Shown: positions 1 through 19,138 of the stretch, in pieces
Layout: every line of letters begins with the position of its first letter
How positions within the stretch are numbered: the stretch's first letter is position 1
NCBI RefSeq assembly: GCF_021028975.2
Contig: NC_059426.1
Coordinates: 70,246,001 to 70,310,000, forward strand
DNA length: 64,000 bases
Direction of reading: 5' to 3'
Origin: Sphaerodactylus townsendi
Lineage: Eukaryota
Translations under genes and position numbers: made by a program
The notes under the pieces: model-generated
Databases searched by the model: none
The model's input: only the letters and a program-made list of their open reading frames with translations
Told to the model about the DNA's origin: nothing

Positions 1-122
1 ATTAACTGCCCAATGACTAATCAATGAATAGATAGCAAGACACTGACCTCACTAGCTAGTTAACATGCACACAGTTAACCCCTTGTTATCTGGATTGTGA
101 CAGACACTTGCAAATCCTAACA
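1..122 (-). repeat. 3' LTR of copia A (partial)
   Basis: 122/122 nt identical to 4435-4556; begins TGTTAG on the minus strand directly after the PPT. Confidence 0.95.
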
Positions 123-135
123 AACCCCTTCTCAA
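123..135 (-). promoter_or_regulatory. Polypurine tract of copia A
   Basis: Minus strand reads TTGAGAAGGGGTT, abutting the LTR TG. Confidence 0.85.
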
Positions 136-243: not shown

Positions 244-905
244 TTAAAATTGCATGCATAAACTTTCTCGAAGATTTTCAAACTTCAGTCTTCCCAGTGG
301 CTTCGTGAAGATGTTAGCCACCATCTCTTCTGAGGGTGTATACTCGACATTGATCAGTCCCTCCTTCATTATCCGCCTCAGTCCTGAGATCTTGATTGTG
401 ATGTGTTTACCTCTGTTGTTGATCCCTTCAGACTTCATCAGGGTAATACTGGCTTGATTGTCCTCAAACAGGGTGATTGGCTTAGATTCATCTATGCCAA
501 AGTCCTTCAGTAGAGCAATGATCCATTCCATTTCTCGACATGCACTATTGGCTGCAATGCATTCAGATTCTGTAGTAGATTGAGCAATAATAGTCTGTTT
601 TCTACTAGTCCAGCTTATCAAGTTCTCTCCATAGTAGAAACTGTATCCACTTGTTGAAGCAAAATCAGTGTTGTCTTCACCCCAGTTTGCATCCATGTAA
701 CCTAGTAGTTTTGGATCCTTGCAGGATGAAATCCTCAATTTTAAGTCCATTGTTTTAATCAGATATTGAGCTATTCTCTTTACAGCTTTCCAATCATGAT
801 GATTTGGTGCACTTGTCTTTCTGCTTAATATTCTTACAGCAGCTGTGATATCTGGTCTTGAGACTGTGCTCAGATACAACAGCTTTCCAATAGCTTCTCT
901 ATATT
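244..905 (-). pseudogene. copia A pol: end of RT and RNase H, frameshifted from the upstream ORF
   Basis: Motifs YL..SRPDI, GYMDANWG, ISWTSRKQ, STTESE, FEDNQ, KHI, ANIFTKPL. Frame break near 905, where YREAIGKLLYL lies in the alternative frame. Confidence 0.9.
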
Positions 906-2096
906 ATTGTTCTCCATTGGCTGTCCATCATTGAGCTTGAGGTATACAGGCTTCATTGGTGTCCTGACACCTTTTGCATCTTTCATGTTCACTGATTCAA
1001 TAAAGTCCATGATCTTTGCTTTCTGGTTGAGAAGAAATCCTCCATCCTGGGTTCTTTCCATTTGTATTCCCAAATATTGCTTTGCTTCTCCCAGTTGCTT
1101 TACTCCAACAGAGTGATTCATCATCTTGGCAATTTCTGCTGCATCCTCACGCGTCTGGCAGCAGACTAAAAGATCGTCAACAAATGTCAAAATGTACTGG
1201 TATTGTCCATTTTTCATCCTTGAAAATAAACATAGTTCAGCTTGCCCTTGCTGAAAACCTTGTTCTTTTAGTAAAGCTGTTAGCTTTCTTTTGTTAGAAA
1301 TAGTCCCAATGTTCAAATGTTGCACTTGCATCTGCCGTGAAGCTGCAATACTCAACAATGTCCTGAAGGCTGTCCACTTCCCTACCTCAGGAGTGGGCAG
1401 TTGCATACTTCCATCAAGGCTAGTGGGTTCACTTTTAGATTCAACATTTTCAGATTCAACATTTGCATGACAAACATAGTCATCATATTTCTTTGGCATA
1501 ACTCCTTTGTTAGCCCTCTGTGATCTCCTTTCAGTGACAGGAATCTCTTCTTCCTCTGTGTCACTTTGCTCTGAGTCAGACTGCCCAGTTGCCCCTTCTA
1601 AATTGGCAGTTTCCAAACTCTCACTGGGGGCAACAGCTGCTTCACTGACCAACTCTGATAAGGTGAGTTCCCCAGGCTCTGGAGCGGGCCTTTGCACTGC
1701 GTTGCCCTGGATAGGAGCCTCTGGGAAATTCCCTTCATCAATGTAAACTGTATTCAAGACATCAACTTGTCCAGTTGTAGGATTCAGGATCCTATATCCC
1801 CATGAAAATGGGTTGTATCCTATTAAAATACCAAGTTCCACTCTTGGATCCAACTTCGCTCTCTTTTCTTTAGGGACAAAACTAAAAACTTTTGATCCGA
1901 AAGACTTTAAATGCTTTAATCCTGGCAACTTGCCATTCCACAGCTCATAAGGAGTCTTTCCTGTTGCTGAGTGAATACTTCTGTGGTACAAGTAGGTGGC
2001 AGTATTTGCTGCCTCTGCCCAGTAGGGGTCAGGCAGGTTCGCTTGCATCAACAAACAACGAGTAGCTTCTAGAATAGTCCTGTTGACTCGCTCAAT
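870..2096 (-). pseudogene. copia A pol: integrase C-terminus and internally deleted RT
   Basis: IERVNRT, YWAEAANTATYL, TPYELWNGK, GY..GYR, EPTS, FVDDLL, YLGIQ. The KARLVA/FAPV and DVKTAFL..YGLKQ blocks are absent. Confidence 0.9.
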
Positions 2097-3425
2097 TCAA
2101 CCATTCTGGAAAGCGCTATACTTTACTGATCTAGCATGCACAATGCCTTCACTGGCTAAATACTCTTCAAGATTGTGATTAACAAATTCAGAGCCATTGT
2201 CAGAGAATAACACCTCTGGAGACTTGCTAAACTTGTTTTTCAGTGATGCTAGATAGCCTTTCAGTTTATCAGCAGCTTGGTCTTTTGACTTCAGGAAATA
2301 AACGCTTACAAATTTACTTTTGGCTTCACAGATTGTGAGCATATACCTGGCTCCGCCACAAGATGGTGACAAAGGGCCTATCAAGTCACAATTGACCCTT
2401 TCCAAAAACTCCACATTGGCTTCACGGCCTTTTGTTCTACTGACCCTAGGTGCAGTCCCTTTTGCTTTCAAACAAATCTCACATTTCTCAAGAGTTAGGC
2501 CACAATCAAAAACTTTCAAATTGCAACTTTCAACAAGTTGTTTCACAGACTTAAAAGATCGATGACCCAATTTTTGATGCCAAGAAAATAAGCACGTTTT
2601 GTGTTTGCAAATGTCCTTAGACACTTTCAAAGATTTATCATCAGCATCAGACAAGTTTACATTTTTCAGATAGCAATAATTTCCATGGAGCTCAGCACGG
2701 AATGTCCTATTTAATTCCCTGTCAATGATAAGACAACATTCTTCCTTCATAACAATTTCACATTGTGCTTTTACAAAGCTTGCTGTAGACAAGAGATTAT
2801 CCCCAGCAGTTGGGACATAGAAAGCTTTTTTCAAAGTAAACGATATGAGTTCTCCTTTTTCATCATAAAAACTTAATTCAACAAGTCCTTCCCCTTCAGG
2901 GCAAAAACTGCTACCATCAGCTTGGGTTAAAACTTCATTACATGGCTTCAAGTCAGTAAAATACTTTTTGTCATTCAAAACATGCTTTCCTGCACCAGAG
3001 TCTAATAGAAACCAATTCTCCTTTCCTTTGGGTTCAGAGTCATTGGCTAGCAAAAGGTTTTTGGAGCTGGAGGGGAATTTTCCACCTCCCCTTTTCTTTT
3101 GCTCAGAGGATTCATTCCTGAAATTCCTTTCTACCTTTCCAGGCATTTTTCTTTGTTTAGGGTTATTACCATCTGAATGGCTAGCTTGCTTGGACCAGCA
3201 GTCAGAAGCCACGTGACCCTTTTTTCCACAGGTGAAACAGGTTTTCTGCTGCCTTTGAAAATGACCATGTACTTTCAAAGTAGAGCTCCCATTTCCTGGA
3301 AAACTTGACTTCTCTTTAAGACCTATTGCAGCATTTCTTAGGTAATTTAAGGCATAATCCACTGTTAAATCATCACGAGCTTGAAGTACAGCTACATGAG
3401 AGTTATAGCGTTCTGGCAGACTCAC
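2097..3425 (-). pseudogene. copia A Gag C-terminus, zinc knuckle, protease and integrase core
   Basis: CFTCGKKGHVASDC, LLDSGA, WHQKLGH..CEIC, DLIGP, SDNGSEF. Ends at an in-frame TGA within QNG*IER. Confidence 0.92.
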
Positions 3426-3967
3426 AAGAAAGCACTTAGAAAATCATCGTCTAGCAATGTAGCTCCTGTTGCTCGTATTTGATGTCTTAAATCCTCCATA
3501 TATTGTAGATGCTCAGTTAAAACTCCACTTGGGGACATTCTGCAGGTATACAGTTGTTGCCTGAGCGATCTGACAAATTGACTTGATCCAAATGCATATC
3601 TACCATTTAAAGATTCCCATAGAGCACATGCAGTTTTGTAATCCATTGCTAGAGCAGCCTCAGATTCATCCAGAGATGAACATATGAAGAGCAAGGCTCT
3701 TTTATCATCACGTTTAAACTGGCTCTGGGCTCTATCACCGGCATCAGGCCCTGGCGGATTCCCTGTTAGGACATACGCTATTTCTTGGACTTCCAAATTC
3801 TGAAACATGCAGGTGCGCCACATGAGGAAGTTATTTTTGTCTAGTTTCCTTAGTGGTGGCAAACTGGGGGCTTGACTTACGTGACCTGTACAGACATTAC
3901 GTGTAGAAGATCCGGATGCACTGTCTGCTGTGGACATGTTGCTCCTCTTCTTGTGTCTTCTTCCCAT
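3422..3967 (-). pseudogene. copia A Gag N-terminal part (UBN2/Retrotran_gag_2-like)
   Basis: L..NF..W, DDKRAL..I, TA..LWESL..RY, HL..M..L..I...G; frameshift before SLPERY. Confidence 0.88.
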
Positions 3968-4085
3968 TCAAAAGCACCACTGTAAATCCAAAATACCTCC
4001 GATTGAGGCAGCGAGAAAAAAACTTCCCTTTTAAAATCTGCACAGCAATCTCTTTTGCTTGGTCTCCTCGCAGCTAGTAAGCTGT

Positions 4086-4099
4086 CTGGGCCCATAACC
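4086..4099 (-). promoter_or_regulatory. Primer-binding site complementary to the anticodon arm of initiator tRNA-Met
   Basis: Minus strand GGTTATGGGCCCAG lies 3 nt after the LTR. The plus strand CTGGGCCCATAACC matches the tRNAiMet anticodon stem-loop. Confidence 0.9.
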
Positions 4100-4102
4100 T
4101 TT

Positions 4103-4556
4103 TGTTGGGGAATTGTTTCCCTATTTGGGTAATAAGCAGAGTGAGAGGAAAGACCAGGAGACTTTTGCTGTGATTATAAAAAGAAACTTTACTTAACTAA
4201 ATCAGGAAAACATGGAATAAACATGGAATAAACATAACAAATCCTTACTATTCTAGTACAAACTTAGTTGCAGAACTTAGGCACATGTGAGCCCACATGT
4301 GGCCTAGGCATTCACCTCTTAAGGTGAATCCATCTTACAGGTACAAGAAAAAGAGAATGGAGTGTGAGACAAAGAAATATAGTTAACTTTATAACCTCTG
4401 ACCTACGTGCTCTGCCTCACCTAAGCAATGTCGGATTAACTGCCCAATGACTAATCAATGAATAGATAGCAAGACACTGACCTCACTAGCTAGTTAACAT
4501 GCACACAGTTAACCCCTTGTTATCTGGATTGTGACAGACACTTGCAAATCCTAACA
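4103..4556 (-). repeat. 5' LTR of copia A (454 bp)
   Basis: TG...CA termini (TGTTAG...CCAACA on the minus strand); its first 122 nt are duplicated at 1-122. Confidence 0.93.
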
Positions 4557-4678
4557 GGGGGAGGGGAGCCAGGTTGGTGCTGCTGCGTTTTAGCAGCGCC
4601 GTCTGTGCGAACGGCTCCCTGGGGATGGCGTTTTTGCCGTCCCCAGGGCGCCGTAAATGGCCTGTGCGGAAAGGGCCT
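4557..4678. mobile_element. End of a PIF/Harbinger-like MITE, probably the insertion site of copia A
   Basis: Ends CCTGTGCGGAAAGGGCC next to TAA, the reverse complement of the terminus at 26153 (GGCCCTTTCCGCACAGG). Confidence 0.65.
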
Positions 4679-5809
4679 AAGTGAGTTGAGGGAGAAGGAT
4701 CATGCCTGCTCACATTCACGAGCTCCTTCCTGTCTCCATACGTGTTCAGTGTGTTTTCCTCTACACATACAGAATATATGTGCATATAGTCTCAACAGAA
4801 TCAGAAGCCCTGCCTTTTGAGGGTTTCTGATCATGAAGATAGAGCTTGTGTTCATATACATTTTGTGTAGCTTTTAATATTTTATGCTGAATACATGGTC
4901 TATGATTGTGACAGTGCCATTTCTAGACTGTAGAACACAGCAATCTTTGTATAGTCCTTGAGAGTTTGAGCAGTTTTTCTATGCATCACAATTTATATCT
5001 TTTCTGAAGCAAACTCTGGTATACCTGATATGTCATGTAAAAGTGCAAATTGGCCTTTTTTAGTGGAATGATTTTGGGTATCACAAGGCCTGCTGACAAC
5101 TGGAGATGGTTTCTTTTCTATCACCTTATTTTCTGCTAGTTTCTGACCCATGATTCAGCTTCTTATTTTAGAAGGAGGAGTGGAAAATGACACCAACAAA
5201 AAATGAGTAAAATTTTTCCTGTCTATCTGAGTCTGTACCATGGAATCCTCAGATTTCAAATCTTTGTCACATAACAGCATCCTTGAAACAAATTTACAAC
5301 CAAATCTCATGCCAAAGAGGAAGAATGAATGGAAAAATAAAAAGGACAGTGTTGATTAATTTTTCTCCATCTGAACATACACATACAAGATGGGAGCCTG
5401 CAAGGGCTTCTGGGAGGGAGGGGTTGTCTCATTTTCCTTTCCCCATTATTTCCTCCTCCCCTTTCCTGGAAGCCCCCAAATCTTTTCCTCTTTTCTGGCT
5501 TTCTTATCTCCTTCTCACTTACCAGATATCTTTATCTGTCCCATTTTTAGCATTCTTTCCTTCTCTTTCCCAGCAACCTCTACCTCAGAAAACTATGGCC
5601 TAGGTGCCCACTCTTGGTTACCGGACCAGGGTCAAGTGTCTAGTGGGGCGCCCACAGGATCATGTGGAAGGGGTACCTCATTTCCCCACATATCCCCCTT
5701 CCCATCCTAATTCCTCTTTCTGTCCTCCTGGAAGTCTCAGTATTGTCAGTTTTCCCTAGTTCCTTCTCTCCCCATCTGAAACCAACATGTGCTGTCCATC
5801 TTCAGTTAT

Positions 5810-7881: not shown

Positions 7882-8814
7882 GTGGGCACCCTAATGCACC
7901 ATCACGTGTGTGCAAGTAAGAGCTGCTTCTGTGGAAAAAGTCCACAGAGGCAGAGAGCCATTGTCCATGCGCTCAGGGCAAAGGACAGGAGAAATGTGAC
8001 TGCAGCATGGAGAAGAAAGGAAGTTAGTGGGCGGTCTCCTGGCCCAGACAAGGAGGGCAAGCAAGAGAGGCAACAACATAGTTAAAATGAGACACACAGC
8101 ACCCTTCAGTGTCCAGGCAGGCAGAAGTCGCTCATTCCAACAACAGCCTCTTTGGCTAGACTCAGCTCCCTGCTGTAACTCAATACTTCTGCGGGGGCAG
8201 CCTCAGGACAGGCCTTGTTCAGAATTAGATATAGTGATGAAAACAAACTTTCTCAATGGAATTTTTTCAGTGTTTTGATTAATTGAGTGTGTTTTGCAGG
8301 GGAAATTTGTGTTGCTTCAGTCATTTGTTTGATTGTTCTTTCAGTTAGAGTTAGGCAATTTATCAGTGGACTGACCTTCTGCATCTTGACAAGTAATATT
8401 TATCAAATGGCCAAGTAGTCTCTTTTCCAAGTATCTGGTTATTGACAAGGACTTCATGTTCATCCCATGCCTAAACTTCACAATACAAAGTTCTTCTTGT
8501 CCTAGAATTAATCATAATATATTTACTTGTCTAGCCACGGGAAATATAAAATTTACAAAAGATACAAACTTCTCAAATTAAAACAAAGTTAGTAAAAAGG
8601 TTAGAAGTCACTTCTCCTTTGTACTGGTTAAAATAAAATAAATGCCTAATAATCAAGTGTTCATCTTTACAACAGGTTTTTGCTAATATTTCGTACATGC
8701 TAATATGTTTATATCACATTTCCTTAACTTCCTTCATCAAGTGAGAGCAGGGTGGCATATATGGTGTTTGTCTGATCTGTTTTATTGTTACAACAACCTA
8801 TTGGGAGAAGCCAC

Positions 8815-10025
8815 AAAAACAAAGTTCTTCAAAATCTTAGCAAGAATATTCCAACAAATACAAAACAAACAATGGTTCACAGACTGGAAATGTTCAATTT
8901 ACATTCCAGTTCTGAAAAAAGAAGATATCAAAGACTGCAGCAACTATTGTACCATCTCATTAATTTCTTATGTGAGTAATGCAAAATCTTACAACAAAGC
9001 TGTTTCTAATGTATGAAACAAGAAAGGCCAGATGTTAAAGCTGGATTCAAAAAAGCAAGAGGCATTGGAGATCATTTTACTGGAGCATAGGAGAGAATTT
9101 CAAAAGAAAGTCAGCTTGTGTTTCATAGTTCACAGCAAAGCTTTCACTGAAAAGTTATTTGCAATGTGAGGCTACTATTAGGACAGAAAACAGAAAAAAA
9201 GAATGGTTTCCAGTTGGCGAAGGTGTCGAGTACGTATAGAATGGATTAGATTTAGATGAAGGTGGAGTGAAAATTCAGCAGAGAAACATTAACCACTGGA
9301 GATATGCAGATGACATCATGTTACTGGCAGACAATGGTAAAGGATGGAAAGAACTACTGATGAAAGTTAAAGCAAAAAGTGCCAAACCAGGATTACAGTT
9401 GAAGACAGCTGAAGACAAAAATAATGACTGCTGAGGAATTACGTAACTTCAAGACTGACAATAAAGACATTGAAATTGTTCAAGATTTTCTATTCCCTGC
9501 TCCATCATCAACCAAAAGGGAGACTGAAACCAAGAAATCAAGAAGATTGAGACAGGGGAGGGCAGCTATGAAGGAGCTAGAAAAGATTCTTAAGTAGAAG
9601 GCTGTGTCATTGATGATCCAGATCAAGATAATTCATATCATAATATTCCCAATACCCTGGACTGATGTGAAAGTTGGACAATGAAGAAAACTGACAGGAG
9701 GAAAGCTGATTCATTTGAAATGTAATACTGAAGGAGAGTTTTATGGACTTCCCATGGACTTCCAAAAAAGACAAATCAAGCCTGAATTCTCCCTAGATGA
9801 CGAAGCTGCATTTGGTTACATTATGTGAAGACAAGAGTCACTGGAAAATACAATAATGCTAGGAAAAACTGAAAGCAGCAGGAAGAGCCAACATGAGGTG
9901 GATTGGTGTAGTAAAGGAAGTCACAGCCCTCAGTTTGTAAGACCTAAGGAAGGCTATTAACAATAGTACATTTGAGAGGTTATTTCATAGAGCCATCATA
10001 CATCAGAAGTGACTTGATAGCACAT
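8815..10025 (+). mobile_element. Degenerate RTE/BovB-like LINE, RT and 3' end
   Basis: DWK.SIYIP..KK.D.KDCSNY.TISLIS and RYADD-encoding sequence; RTE-type 3' end; many stops and indels. Confidence 0.85.
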
Positions 10026-10350: not shown

Positions 10351-11292
10351 TCAGAAACATCTGCACAGATTTCTCTCCAATGTCCTCTTCAAGGCATCCT
10401 TTACATCTTTATTTCTTAGACTGTAGATTAAAGGATTCAACATGGGAAACACAACAGTATAAAAAACTGAGATTATTTTGTCTGTGTCCAGGGTATAACT
10501 TGAACTAGGACGTAGATACATAAAAAGAAGGGTGCCATAGAAAAGGGCAACAGCTGTCAAGTGGGAGGTGCAGGTTGAAAAGGCTTTGTGGCGGCCTTCA
10601 GCAGACTGTATCTTCAGGATTGTGCACAGGATGCAAAAATAAGAGACAAGGATAACCAAGAAGGTGCACATTTGTATAGAGCCACATAGAGCAAAGAGGA
10701 GGATTTCGTTGATATGAGTTTTGGAGCAGGAGAGAGCTAATAATGGAGGGATGTCACAGAAGAAGTGATTGATGACATTAGAACTGCAGAATGAAAGATG
10801 GAATGTAAACCAAGTGTGCACCAGTGAGCTCATGCTGCCTGTGAGATAGGAACCTGCTACTAGGCAGATGCAGAGTTTGTGAGACATGAGACCGGTATAG
10901 AGCAGTGGATTACAAATGGCCATGTAACGGTCATAGGCCATAGCAGCCAGCAGAAGGCATTCTGCATCAGCAAAGCAAGCAAACAAATACATCTGTGCAA
11001 TGCAGCCTGTGAATGATATGGTTTTCCTTTCAGCTAACAAATTGGCCAGCATCTTGGGAGTAATGGCAGAAGAATAACTAAGATCTAAGAAAGCCAGGTT
11101 ATTGAGGAAAAAGTACATTGGAGTATGAAGACAGGGATTGATCCAGATCAGCACAAAGATACCGATGTTCCCCATCAGTGTAGCAATATAGATGATTAGG
11201 AAGAGCACAAAAAGGACAACCTTTATGTCTTGTCGATCTGTGAAACCGAAGAGAATGAACTCAGTTATTGTAGTATGATTCCCATTGGCCAT
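10351..11292 (-). CDS. Olfactory receptor, class II, family 5-like (313 aa)
   Basis: ATG at 11292 (MANGNHTT, N-glycosylation site); [47 protein letters not shown]. Confidence 0.96.
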
Positions 11293-12676
11293 TTTGTTTG
11301 AGTTTCTTGCCTTTGCCTCCAGATCAGTGACAGGTGAATCAACGAGAGGAAGGAACAGCAGGGAGAACTTCAAATAAATTGTTTTAGACAATGGTTTTCT
11401 TTGCCTCTTATTTGAAACCTGAAGAAAGAGAGCAAATATTTTTAAATACTTCAGTCTCATCGCTTAATTATTTTGTAACTGATACAGATCTTCAGAATGC
11501 TCCAATTTATTTTCCATTTTTTCTGATTTTCCAGTATGAAGCCCATCTTTAATTGTTAATATTTTATGTTTTTGTAATTTATTAGGTGTATGTGGCTCAT
11601 TGGCAATTAAGCAATAAGTGTAGCCTCAACAATGATCTATGTATTCTTCCAAATATCCTTGCCAGCAAAATTCAACATCCATATCTACTTCCAAAAAAAC
11701 TCTTGCTTCTACTCTGTCTCTGTCAATTCATTAATTATTAAAACAAAGTCAAGAAAATCAGCTTATTTAGTTTCCTTTTAATTTTAAGTATATGCTAACA
11801 GTAAAATAATATGATATTGCGGCCAGATGTGCAGAGGCTTCCTTGTAATAAATACAGACGCGGCTTGGATTGAAAATGGGCCGCAGCCCTTTATTATTAC
11901 TATAATTGTTATACTGAAGCTGGGCGATCAAGAGAAGCACATCTTATCTGCCAGTCAGCATCCCTGGCTGATCCCGACTTCAACCCCAATTCTATTGGGG
12001 AGGACAGAGGTACTGGGCCATGGGGCGCTCGCCCATTCTTCGTGGCTCCCACACTGCTGGGGTGTCGGGCTCACCTGCAGAGGCCTTTGCAGCATGCTCC
12101 CCGAGCCCGCCCCGCCCCACCCCACCCCAAGCCTCTTATGGAGACCCCCATAGGCAGGGAGGTCTGGCATGCAAGCTCGCCCCCCCAAAAGATGCGCTCC
12201 TCTGCTCAAACCACTACAGAGCTGACTTGGCAGCTCCTGCCACAGCTTCGCAGCAATCCAGCCGGTCCCACTGGGCTCACCGAACGGCCAGAACCCCCTA
12301 CCCCCGTGTTGCTCCAATCAGCGCGCACTGCATTGTTGGAAGGCCATGGCACTTCACGCACATGCTCGTGGGCGGGAACTTGCTTTTTTATAGTAGTTTA
12401 AAGTGTTCATAGAATTTTGCAGACATCACTTCAGTAGCCTTCAAACAACTGTGTAATGTAAACCAGTATTATTGTTGTCCAGATATCAGTTATGGGAGAA
12501 AGTTAAGGCTGCTTTAAGGACACTCAGTAAGTTCATGGGTAAGGCAAAAGTAGAATTTGGAGGCTTCTCACTTCCTCGTCTTAGCCACTGTAGGATGATG
12601 TCAGGGTTGTGTTCAGTTTGGTGCATTATCAGCAGCTTTGTTACATAGGGTTGGCATATGCCTTATTTATTTTAGA

Positions 12677-17128: not shown

Positions 17129-18061
17129 TTAAAAGTGGGTTTTATCCACCAGTCTCCTGAAGGCACCTTTCACTTCCTTGTTCCTCAGGCTGTAGATTAT
17201 AGGATTCAGCATGGGAATCACCATTGTGTAGAATATTGATGCAATTTTGTCCGTATCTAATGAGTGGGTACCATTAGGCTGGCAATACATGAAGAGAATA
17301 GTAGCATGGAATATGGAGATGGCTGTGAAGTGGGAGGCACAGGTAGAGAAGGCTTTGTATTTCCCTTTGTTGGACTGGATCTTCAATACTGATGTAATAA
17401 TGAACAAGTAAGACATGAGGATTATTATTATGGTGCTGGTTTCCACAAATGTAGCAAAAATGAAAAGAAGCACTTTATTGGTGTGGTTATCAGAGCAGGA
17501 GAGATCCAGTACTGGGGAAATGTCACAAAAGAAGTGATTGATGGCATTTGGCCCACAGAAATCTAACCTAAAAGCAGAACAAGTATGCACAAGGGCACAA
17601 ACAATGCCACCGATATATGAACCAGCTACAAGTTGGATGCACAGCTTTCTAGACATAACAGCTGTATACAACAAGGGATTACAAATAGCCACATAGCGGT
17701 CATATGCCATCACAGCCAAGATAAAAGATTCAGTTACAACAAACATAACAAATAGGTACATCTGAACTGCACACTCAGCAAGAGAAATTTCTTTCATCGT
17801 AGATACAGAGTCGATGAGAAATCTGGGTGTGATGGATGAGGAATAGCAAATGTCAACAAAGGACAAATGACTGAGGAAAAAGTACATTGGACAATGGAGA
17901 TGGGATTCTACCCTGATTAATATAATTATGCCAATATTCCCTATTAAAGTGACAAGATATATCAGAAGAAACACCAGGAATAGGATAATATGAAGCTCTG
18001 GATTTTCCGTGAAGCCCAGAAGGATGAACATTGTCACAGAAGTATGATTTTTTTCTTTCAT
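17129..18061 (-). CDS. Olfactory receptor, class II, family 5-like (310 aa)
   Basis: ATG at 18061 (MKEKNHTS); [45 protein letters not shown]. Confidence 0.96.
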
Positions 18062-19138
18062 TCCTGTAGGAACTGGTGTGTGTTGCAAAGAACTGGAAAA
18101 GGTAATGCCAAATAAAACAAGGGTGTCTCAAAATCCTACTGCTGAATTATTAGTATTAGTAGTACTAGACTTTTTTCTTTTCAAAAAAAGGTGTCATGGT
18201 TAAAAAGAAAACCCTTCAACTTAAATGTTCATGCCTTCAAGAGATCATTGGTCTTCAAAGGGTGGTTTTGGTTTGAATACATTTCCTTCCTGGAAAACAA
18301 TAACTGATAATACGTAACATTAGTTATTTTTTTCTGTTGTTCCCAAATTGATCACATATTAAAAGAGAAATACATATAAGTGTTTGATGAAACAGAAAAA
18401 ATGTAACAAGATGGATTCCCAGCATTACAATTCTGCTTTTTGTCATATCTGCCTATTTCTGCTGGTTCCATATTATTCTTCATTTGAGCAGAATCATAGT
18501 ATTCAATTCCTTCCCAGAAAAATTAGCCTTTCTAGGTTTGTGGCAGGAATGATAAAGAGAAATCTCTACGGAGCACATGTCCCTTAAATGCAGCTTCACA
18601 TCCACTGTTTGGTACAGTGACATTCACAGAGTAAATCCTGTGAAGACACATGAAGAGCACTGGTCTTTTATCTTTGTATGGGCACCCTAGCACCTGCAGT
18701 ATTATTGATTAGATGAAAAAAACCCACATGCAAATATGCGGACTTCTAAGAAGCAAATGATGCGTTTGTATTTGTATGAAAAGGCTTCTGAAGGGGTGCC
18801 TGTGGAAGTTCTGGTAAGATGGATGTTTGTGCTTTCTGGTTCTAACTGCAATTCTGTTTCTGTTCCTACCTGGCTGAATCTTTCCCAGGAAGTTGCCAAA
18901 CCGAAGACACACATTACAACGAAGCCAATGATGAAAGAGAGACTGCTGTCACTTGATCTCAAGGCAACTGTACAAAGTTTGTATAGCAGAGCTCTTTTTT
19001 TATTTGCTTCTAAGACCTTTGGGATCCAATTTGTGAAGCACTTTGAAAATTTCCTGTCTTGGGATCCGTGAAAAATGTCAGAATCCAATAGACACCTTCC
19101 CTGAGGCATGATTATAATACATATACATTATTTTACAT

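What the first reader, a model, noticed from the sequence alone, without database searches (positions are those of the whole stretch)
4086..4102. Squamate copia element primed by a half (anticodon-cleaved) initiator tRNA
Seen: the PBS is GGTTATGGGCCCAG, not the usual TGG.. complement of a tRNA 3' CCA end. Known: this motif pairs with the anticodon arm of tRNAiMet, and Drosophila copia and yeast Ty5 prime from a 5' tRNA fragment in this way. Ty1/copia elements are essentially absent from mammals and birds. Inference: a recently active amniote element depends on a tRNA half made by anticodon-region cleavage, which would link its transposition to tRNA-fragment biogenesis, and its lineage may be close to invertebrate elements.
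Basis: partly seen in the sequence, partly recalled or inferred. Interest (0 to 1): 0.72.

Follow-up and report, generated by a model that had tools for sequence, protein, structure and literature searches.

The report
Gecko copia with half-tRNA primer site
A young but broken copia-type jumping gene in a gecko-like lizard carries a primer site that matches the middle of the host's initiator tRNA, so it likely starts copying itself from a cut tRNA as fly copia does; this is a known trick, the site occurs hundreds of times in this genome, and extra matching boxes in the element's end repeat would help it grip and refold that tRNA.

Summary
Observation confirmed; interpretation partly. GGTTATGGGCCCAG (4086-4099, minus strand, after a 3-nt spacer) follows the 5' LTR of a 4,883-bp Ty1/copia element (5-bp TSD, LTRs 1.1% apart) and is the exact complement of nt 26-39 of the host tRNA-iMet. 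It is not special to this copy: 714 exact genome matches, mostly at LTR ends of many copia families. Squamate copia are published (23 of 24 genomes, all Mtanga clade), and half-tRNA priming defines Hemivirus-type elements, so novelty is low. Corrections: the implied cut lies in the anticodon stem, not the loop, which fits an RNase P-type cut better than stress tRNA halves; this copy is broken; 16 of 17 family copies carry a longer G-run in the PBS; no close invertebrate relative was found. Added here: LTR ends hold 7+ nt complements of tRNA-iMet nt 1-25 at 47 of 86 sites (control window 1 of 86), and modelled binding refolds nt 40-75 into a minihelix starting at the cut. The scan noted half-tRNA primer sites before in other genomes, none in this one.

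The parts
4557..4561 (-). Target-site duplication, 5' copy (CCCCC in element orientation; the 3' copy lies beyond the window start)
4103..4556 (-). 5' LTR, 454 bp, TG...CA; 5 substitutions in 449 aligned bases against the 3' LTR
4135..4143 (-). U5 box: exact 9-nt complement of tRNA-iMet nt 1-9 (acceptor 5' strand); exact in 14 of 17 family copies
   Evidence: (0 of 1000 shuffles reach 9)
4100..4102 (-). 3-nt AAA spacer between LTR end and PBS
4086..4099 (-). Primer-binding site, exact complement of host tRNA-iMet nt 26-39; 3-G form unique to this copy among 17 family copies
4069..4085 (-). Leader extension predicted to pair with the tRNA D arm (nt 11-24), continuing the PBS helix
   Evidence: (-16.7 kcal/mol, 3 of 500 shuffles as low)
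3422..3967 (-). gag, N-terminal part (Retrotran_gag_2); frame breaks at its end
2097..3443 (-). gag zinc knuckle, protease region and integrase N-terminal/core part; ends in an in-frame stop inside integrase
870..2096 (-). Integrase C-terminal part and reverse transcriptase with internal deletions (about 350-400 bp shorter than longer copies; Pfam RVT_2 matched only at profile positions 131-243 of 244)
244..903 (-). RNase H region, in another frame
125..133 (-). Polypurine tract, followed by 2 nt before the 3' LTR
1..122 (-). Start of the 3' LTR (runs on beyond the window; whole in L061)

Best explanation
This is the primer-binding site of a young but broken Ty1/copia LTR retrotransposon, exactly complementary to nt 26-39 of the host initiator tRNA, so reverse transcription of the family likely starts from the 5' 39 nt of that tRNA (Hemivirus-type priming). 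SHOWN: element anatomy; the 14-bp complement; its stop at nt 39; extra complements to tRNA nt 1-25 at the LTR end across families. PREDICTED (folding): the RNA pairs with tRNA nt 11-39 through PBS plus leader, leaves nt 1-10 free for the U5 box, and nt 40-75 refold into a 10-bp stem with the T-loop and a CCA tail that begins exactly at nt 40. INFERRED: a host nuclease, most likely RNase P, cuts at 39/40 on this refolded complex and leaves the 3'-OH primer (about 0.5); the PBS is not re-copied from the primer each cycle, which lets the 5-G bulged form persist (about 0.6); this copy, broken in gag, integrase and RT, moved with proteins supplied in trans or decayed after insertion. The family most likely belongs to the Mtanga clade, the only copia clade reported in lepidosaurs (about 0.9, not tested against a reference).
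For: Anatomy: (14 of 15 two-LTR copies have a perfect 5-bp TSD). Host tRNA-iMet match 26-39: (duplex -28.9 kcal/mol against -6.9 for the tRNA-iMet 3' end). Motif 714 vs 0 control; of 86 sampled non-tRNA sites 56 follow CA directly and 77 within 0-5 nt. U5 complements: 8 of 11 families have a 7+ nt exact complement of nt 1-25 in the last 60 nt before the PBS, against 0-1 of 11 in eight control windows and 0 of 11 for nt 40-64; 0 of 300 shuffles reach the mean; 47 of 86 sites vs 1 of 86 control, other host tRNA-like genes 0-8 of 86. Refolding: (complex -58.4; free tRNA MFE -30.3, free RNA -9.4). Precedent: PMC10275265 (copia uses a 5' tRNA-iMet half), PMC5371799 (Ty5 primer end ascribed to RNase P), PMC8515867, PMC6317226, PMC10886601. 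Clade: PMC11889832 text and supplements 3, 6; tree sister to a Gekko japonicus protein, SH-aLRT 100.
Against: No primer, cut or transcript was observed. 16 of 17 family copies lack the perfect 14-mer (bulge of 1-5 nt costs about 4-10 kcal/mol). The U5 box pairing crosses the PBS helix (loop-back), so it was scored on its own (-14.1), not in one fold; folding ignores tRNA modifications. Families are related, so the 11 are not fully independent; the family cut-offs and the 60-nt window were chosen after seeing the data. The host tRNA set tested for rival 3' matches was partial (25 distinct genes, no Pro). The tree is the quick search without bootstrap, holds no Mtanga, copia or Ty5 reference, and three own rows are under half filled. 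PMC5371799 words the Ty5 cut as within the anticodon loop, not the stem.
Confidence: 0.8

Rival explanations
1. The primer is taken from a pre-existing host pool of 5' tRNA halves made by anticodon-loop nucleases (angiogenin type), tying transposition to stress or germline tRNA-fragment biogenesis.
For: [quoted passage not shown] Boxes match only the 5' part of the tRNA, as a free half would need.
Against: The pairing runs to nt 39, four bases past the anticodon and inside the stem; a loop cut (nt 31-37) removes the primer's last pairs, and RNase A-type cuts leave a blocked cyclic-phosphate end (recalled). A box that mimics the acceptor 3' strand is more useful for opening an intact tRNA (inference).
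Confidence: 0.12
2. Same 39-nt primer, but made on the element RNA by something other than RNase P: 3'-to-5' trimming back to the duplex edge, or a cut by another host or element-encoded nuclease inside the particle.
For: A sharp boundary at nt 39 is what trimming to a duplex edge would also give; nothing here names the enzyme.
Against: The released nt 40-75 are predicted to form a minihelix with CCA that starts exactly at nt 40, an RNase P-like substrate; a reference title (Kikuchi 1990, seen only in a reference list) proposes RNase P for the copia primer.
Confidence: 0.25
3. Ordinary priming from the CCA end of another tRNA at the TGG that begins 9 nt after the LTR; the tRNA-iMet match is a relic.
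For: A TGG lies inside the motif; the 5-G form starts like a tRNA-Pro-type PBS for 7 nt (recalled, not tested); the family tolerates a bulge in the iMet match.
Against: Best 3'-anchored match among 25 distinct host tRNA-like genes is 3-7 nt, always 8 nt away from the LTR end, against 14 nt for iMet; the exact iMet motif is shared by 10+ families and flanked by iMet-specific boxes.
Confidence: 0.03
4. The family came recently from an invertebrate by horizontal transfer.
For: It lies in an animal clade with spider, pseudoscorpion and nematode elements (SH-aLRT 99); PMC11889832 leaves horizontal acquisition of Mtanga by sarcopterygians open.
Against: No relative above 56% among the best 150 of 1.84 billion representatives; the closest named one is from another gecko; the family is shared by four organism labels. 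An old transfer is not excluded. Three of the closest rows are unnamed.
Confidence: 0.07

Closest known systems
Drosophila copia and yeast Ty5 (ICTV genus Hemivirus; also Osser, Bryco, Gymco-II, fungal Copia/Helenus)
   Same: Ty1/copia domain order; PBS complementary to the anticodon arm of tRNA-iMet, implying a 5' tRNA fragment as primer (PMC8515867, PMC6317226, PMC10886601, PMC10275265). That fly copia has this same 14-mer and a 39-nt primer is recalled.
   Different: Vertebrate host; 3-nt spacer after the LTR (56 of 86 sampled sites in this genome have none); PBS bulged by extra G in most copies; U5 boxes for tRNA nt 1-9 or 12-21, for which I found no description in hemiviruses.
Mtanga clade of metazoan Copia (Anopheles Mtanga; lepidosaur subclades; Anolis Copia-6-like active corn-snake element)
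   Same: Copia in a squamate; all 750 amniote elements analysed by PMC11889832 are Mtanga, including the 18 annotated Gekko japonicus clusters; sister to a G. japonicus protein in my tree; recent activity as in corn snake.
   Different: That paper's main text has no occurrence of PBS, tRNA or primer; its reference sequences could not be read, so subclade placement is open.
Extended primer contacts of Ty1 (bipartite PBS, boxes for D and T arms) and Candida elements with long internal-tRNA PBSs
   Same: Several short stretches grip the primer tRNA beyond the core PBS (PMC5371799, PMC4139406; Ty1 box details recalled).
   Different: Ty1 primes from the intact 3' end; here the extra boxes match only the 5' 25 nt and lie mostly in U5, upstream of the PBS.

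Membership tests
Ty1/copia LTR retrotransposons (Pseudoviridae) | Two LTRs (TG...CA), 5-bp TSD, PBS and PPT | tested here: met
Ty1/copia LTR retrotransposons (Pseudoviridae) | gag, then protease-integrase-RT-RNase H order with copia-type domains | tested here: met
   Pfam Retrotran_gag_2, zf-CCHC, Pol_BBD, gag_pre-integrs, rve, RVT_2 in that order; RNase H part by homologs
Hemivirus-type (half-tRNA) priming | PBS complementary to an internal (anticodon-arm) segment of tRNA-iMet instead of the CCA end | tested here: met
   nt 26-39 of host gene
Hemivirus-type (half-tRNA) priming | A truncated tRNA is physically the primer of minus-strand DNA | not testable with these tools
   needs particles or strong-stop DNA
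Hemivirus (ICTV genus) | Phylogenetic placement with copia, Ty5, 1731 or Osser | not tested
   no named copia/Ty5 sequence came back; ICTV itself expects revision of the genus
Mtanga clade | RT/RNase H groups with Mtanga reference elements | tested here: inconclusive
   reference FASTA of PMC11889832 unreadable; indirect only: sister to a G. japonicus protein, whose annotated clusters are all Mtanga
Mtanga clade | Host range includes Lepidosauria | tested here: met
   host is a gecko-like squamate
Autonomous element | Unbroken gag-pol | tested here: not met
   window copy has four separate frames and RT deletions; none of the 15 two-LTR copies examined has one unbroken frame

The most novel reading that the evidence does not exclude
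Squamate copia elements make their own primer: a three-part site (U5 box, PBS, leader) seizes the whole 5' 39 nt of intact tRNA-iMet, displaces its 3' half into an RNase P substrate and so directs the 39/40 cut, an architecture kept across many otherwise unalignable LTR families and not yet described, which would answer how hemivirus half-tRNA primers arise and show it working in an amniote.
Probability: 0.25. Interest if true: 0.62.

Novelty: new member of a known kind. Interest (0 to 1): 0.36.

Why it matters
Half-tRNA priming is old knowledge and squamate copia are a published, abundant group, so the site itself is ordinary. What may be useful: (1) I found no paper that states the primer type of squamate copia, and here it appears as the common type in a lizard genome (714 exact sites), in a group that still causes mutations in snakes; (2) how the 39-nt primer is made is still thinly documented in the reviews read, and the U5 and leader boxes give a concrete, cheap test with short RNAs; (3) elements with such a PBS would escape silencing by CCA-ended 3' tRNA fragments that act on mammalian LTR elements (inference; that silencing is described in PMC7773854).

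Tried and rejected
Pattern search for tRNA-iMet with a recalled motif found nothing; a locus-derived motif found it. Rfam tRNA search of the genome scores only the best 63 candidates, so no full tRNA set. L097, L098, L099 share spacer and 3-G-type PBS but belong to other families (27-52% protein identity in long HSPs), so they were not counted as family copies. Five of 91 sampled motif sites (L036-L039, L167) are tRNA-derived and were dropped before counting. Homopolymer assembly error as the source of the 5-G PBS rejected: the 2-base insertion stands in contigs of all four public runs laid (37.3 of 37.3, 1661.8 of 3381.4, 19.8 of 19.8, 574.7 of 677.2 depth; four organism labels, three studies); whether this copy's 3-G form is a true reversion, slippage or an error stays open. 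Expression: no RNA holder listed; three RNA runs of a related organism gave 105, 46 and 26 reads, mostly on the LTR, over half running on into unlike sequence: not used for or against activity. Protein atlas gave only generic RVT_2 clusters. Corn-snake element PBS not found in the readable supplements of PMC4657000 and PMC11948899 (the sequence files may not be among them). Tuatara supplement held no Mtanga text. Primary papers not held: Ke 1999, Rohr 2002, Lauermann and Boeke 1994/1997, Friant 1996, Kikuchi 1990, Matthews 1997. The careful tree did not finish; the quick tree was used. No absolute age is given because no rate was available from a call.

Full report
OBSERVATION. The motif GGTTATGGGCCCAG lies at 4086-4099 on the minus strand and is the window's only match with up to two mismatches. 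It follows a 3-nt AAA spacer (4100-4102) after the CA end of a 454-bp LTR (4103-4556). With the flank from the own genome the element is 4,883 bp, has TSD CCCCC on both sides and LTRs that differ at 5 of 449 aligned bases. Pfam gives copia gag, zinc knuckle, Pol beta-barrel, pre-integrase, rve, SH3 and RVT_2 in copia order; a PPT lies at 125-133. The copy is broken: four separate frames and an RT region about 350-400 bp shorter than in longer copies. The host is a gecko-like squamate: a window olfactory receptor is 88% identical to a gecko protein and 70-75% to other lizards and snakes.

MATCH TO THE HOST tRNA. Two tRNA-Met(CAT) genes were found (L079, L080); the initiator label rests on the recalled vertebrate sequence type. 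The PBS is the exact complement of nt 26-39, with the anticodon at 33-35, so the implied primer is the 5' 39 nt and ends two bases into the 3' strand of the anticodon stem. The duplex is -28.9 kcal/mol against -6.9 for the same tRNA's 3' 18 nt. Among 25 distinct tRNA-like genes from 43 ARAGORN calls in fetched loci (a partial set, without Pro), the best 3'-anchored match was 3-7 nt and always began 8 nt from the LTR end.

HOW COMMON. The exact motif occurs 714 times in the genome, the reversed control 0 times. I fetched 90 of the first 100 listed places and added the window; 5 of the 91 are tRNA-derived and were dropped. Of the other 86, 56 follow CA directly and 77 within 0-5 nt; only 4 have the G that would pair nt 40. 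They fall into 31 clusters, 10 with two or more members; of 16 C1 sites extended, 11 showed an LTR pair, 7 of them above 96% identity, and 13 showed copia protein hits. So this is the usual primer site of many copia families in this genome.

THE FAMILY'S OWN COPIES. An LTR-leader search gave 15 full-length-query hits and many solo LTRs among 40 scored of 1,364 candidates. Fifteen two-LTR copies have LTR pairs 0.4-3.4% apart (one poor alignment at 10%) and 14 have perfect 5-bp TSDs. Of 17 copies with a PBS, only the window copy has the perfect 3-G form; 11 have five G, 2 four G, and 3 other longer purine runs. The window copy is nested among 5-base-run copies, sister to one with GAGGG (SH-aLRT 99), so the perfect form is derived. 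The 5-G form is real: the 2-base insertion stands in contigs of all four public runs laid. It keeps all 14 pairs around a 2-nt bulge (-23.5). Persistence of a mismatched PBS suggests it is inherited from the element rather than re-copied from the primer, as titled for Ty1 (reference title only); this is inference.

EXTRA PRIMER CONTACTS. The window element has an exact complement of tRNA nt 1-9 in U5 (4135-4143; 0 of 1000 shuffles reach it) and a leader stretch (4069-4085) predicted to pair with the D arm (3 of 500 shuffles as low); the exact boxes are kept in 14, 14 and 16 of 17 copies. Over 11 families (10 multi-member clusters plus the window family), 8 have a 7+ nt exact complement of nt 1-25 in the last 60 nt before the PBS, against 0-1 of 11 in eight other windows and 0 of 11 for nt 40-64; 0 of 300 dinucleotide shuffles reach the observed mean of 7.36 (null 5.35), while the 3' half is at chance (202 of 300). 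Over all 86 sites: 47 against 1 in a control window; reversed or same-sense iMet 2 and 1; ten other tRNA-like genes 0-8. Matches centre on nt 1-9 and 12-21. Limits: families are related and the window size was chosen after seeing the data. Co-folding intact tRNA+CCA with PBS and leader pairs nt 11-39, leaves nt 1-10 single-stranded, and folds nt 40-75 into a 10-bp stem with the T-loop and a CCA tail beginning exactly at nt 40.

MECHANISM. Most likely the element RNA invades intact tRNA-iMet through PBS, leader and U5 box; the freed 3' half forms a minihelix that RNase P can cut at 39/40, leaving a 3'-OH primer (product chemistry recalled); RT then copies the spacer, U5 and R. Half-tRNA priming about 0.9; RNase P as the cutter about 0.5; trimming or another nuclease 0.25; a pool of loop-cut stress halves 0.12. 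None of this was observed. Seven of 15 copies have a shortened RT segment (603-688 bp against 952-1000), so RT-deleted forms likely spread with proteins supplied in trans.

RELATIVES. The best 150 of 1.84 billion representatives reach 49% over the RT-RH stretch (one fragment 56%); of 20 looked up, the named ones are Gekko japonicus, a pseudoscorpion and a nematode. In a quick 52-row tree (four rows dropped as too short) the family groups with the Gekko protein and another AAA-spacer family (100), inside an animal clade (99) that also holds six other own-genome families as a separate group, spiders, pseudoscorpion and Trichuris. No recent invertebrate donor shows.

WHAT IS KNOWN. [quoted passage not shown] PMC6317226 (passages): half-tRNA-Met PBS in Osser, Bryco, Gymco-II, with the cut placed in the anticodon stem. 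PMC10886601 (passages): anticodon-arm priming in copia, Ty5 and many fungal elements. PMC10275265, PMC7773854, PMC5371799, PMC4139406, PMC2359750, PMC3601003, PMC3587641 (passages). PMC11889832 (passages, supplement 6 whole, rows of supplements 1-3): copia in 23 of 24 squamates, all 750 amniote elements Mtanga; no mention of PBS, tRNA or primer in the main text; its tree figures and FASTA were unreadable and may bear on placement. PMC7116210 (passages): Mtanga-like copia abundant in tuatara. PMC4657000 and PMC11948899 (passages, readable supplements searched): a probably active copia in corn snake. Nine paper searches showed no paper stating the PBS of squamate copia or U5 boxes for a half-tRNA primer; the library lacks most subscription papers, Repbase and GyDB, and the primary copia/Ty5 papers were not held, so this is weak evidence of absence. 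The scan's index held five notes on half-tRNA PBSs in other genomes and none for this genome or protein.

VERDICT. Real feature, known mechanism, known group: new member of a known kind. The U5/leader boxes and the refolding model are the part worth a test. Interest 0.36.

Noticed in passing
window 870-2096 and L061-L076, L100: The RT catalytic motif reads FVDD instead of YVDD in all 14 of 17 copies where the motif was read; the Gekko relative has YVDD, the unnamed sister protein P0184 FVDD; F is rare among the 150 representatives (6 against 99 Y).
   Followed up: partly
L061, L062, L063, L065, L070, L071, L074 (element positions about 3170-3280 in the window copy): Seven copies have a shortened RT segment, three of identical length (603 bp); the pieces left between the deletions are only about 79% identical to longer copies while the rest is about 95%, and L063 groups with an undeleted copy in the gag-IN tree, hinting at recombination with an older deleted form.
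   Followed up: partly
L037/L038 and L039 (G000:C1 about 12.52-12.54 Mb), L036, L167: tRNA-iMet-derived sequences in which the anticodon-arm segment appears twice in inverted orientation (hairpin-like), not called as tRNA by ARAGORN.
   Followed up: no
L047/L054/L148/L173 (spacer 3), L051 family (spacer 4), most others (spacer 0): The LTR-to-PBS spacer is family-specific (0, 3 or 4 nt); the 3-nt-spacer family L098 groups with the window family in the tree, the 0- and 4-nt families form another group.
   Followed up: partly
L049/L050 (G000:C1 44.013-44.018 Mb); L022: Two PBS motifs 4 kb apart in the same orientation, and a pair of adjacent solo LTRs in L022, suggesting tandem insertions.
   Followed up: no
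window 4557-4680: The element inserted next to or into a short very high-copy repeat (contig depth far above the LTR's in all four runs).
   Followed up: no
window 10351-11463 and 17129-18127: Intact-looking olfactory receptor genes on the minus strand; the element sits beside an olfactory receptor cluster.
   Followed up: partly
window about 8700-10000: Decayed sequence that reads like a LINE (RTE/Bov-B-type) remnant by eye; not tested.
   Followed up: no
L079:292-1547: tRNA cluster with Leu(CAG), Lys(TTT) and the Met(CAT) gene used here.
   Followed up: yes
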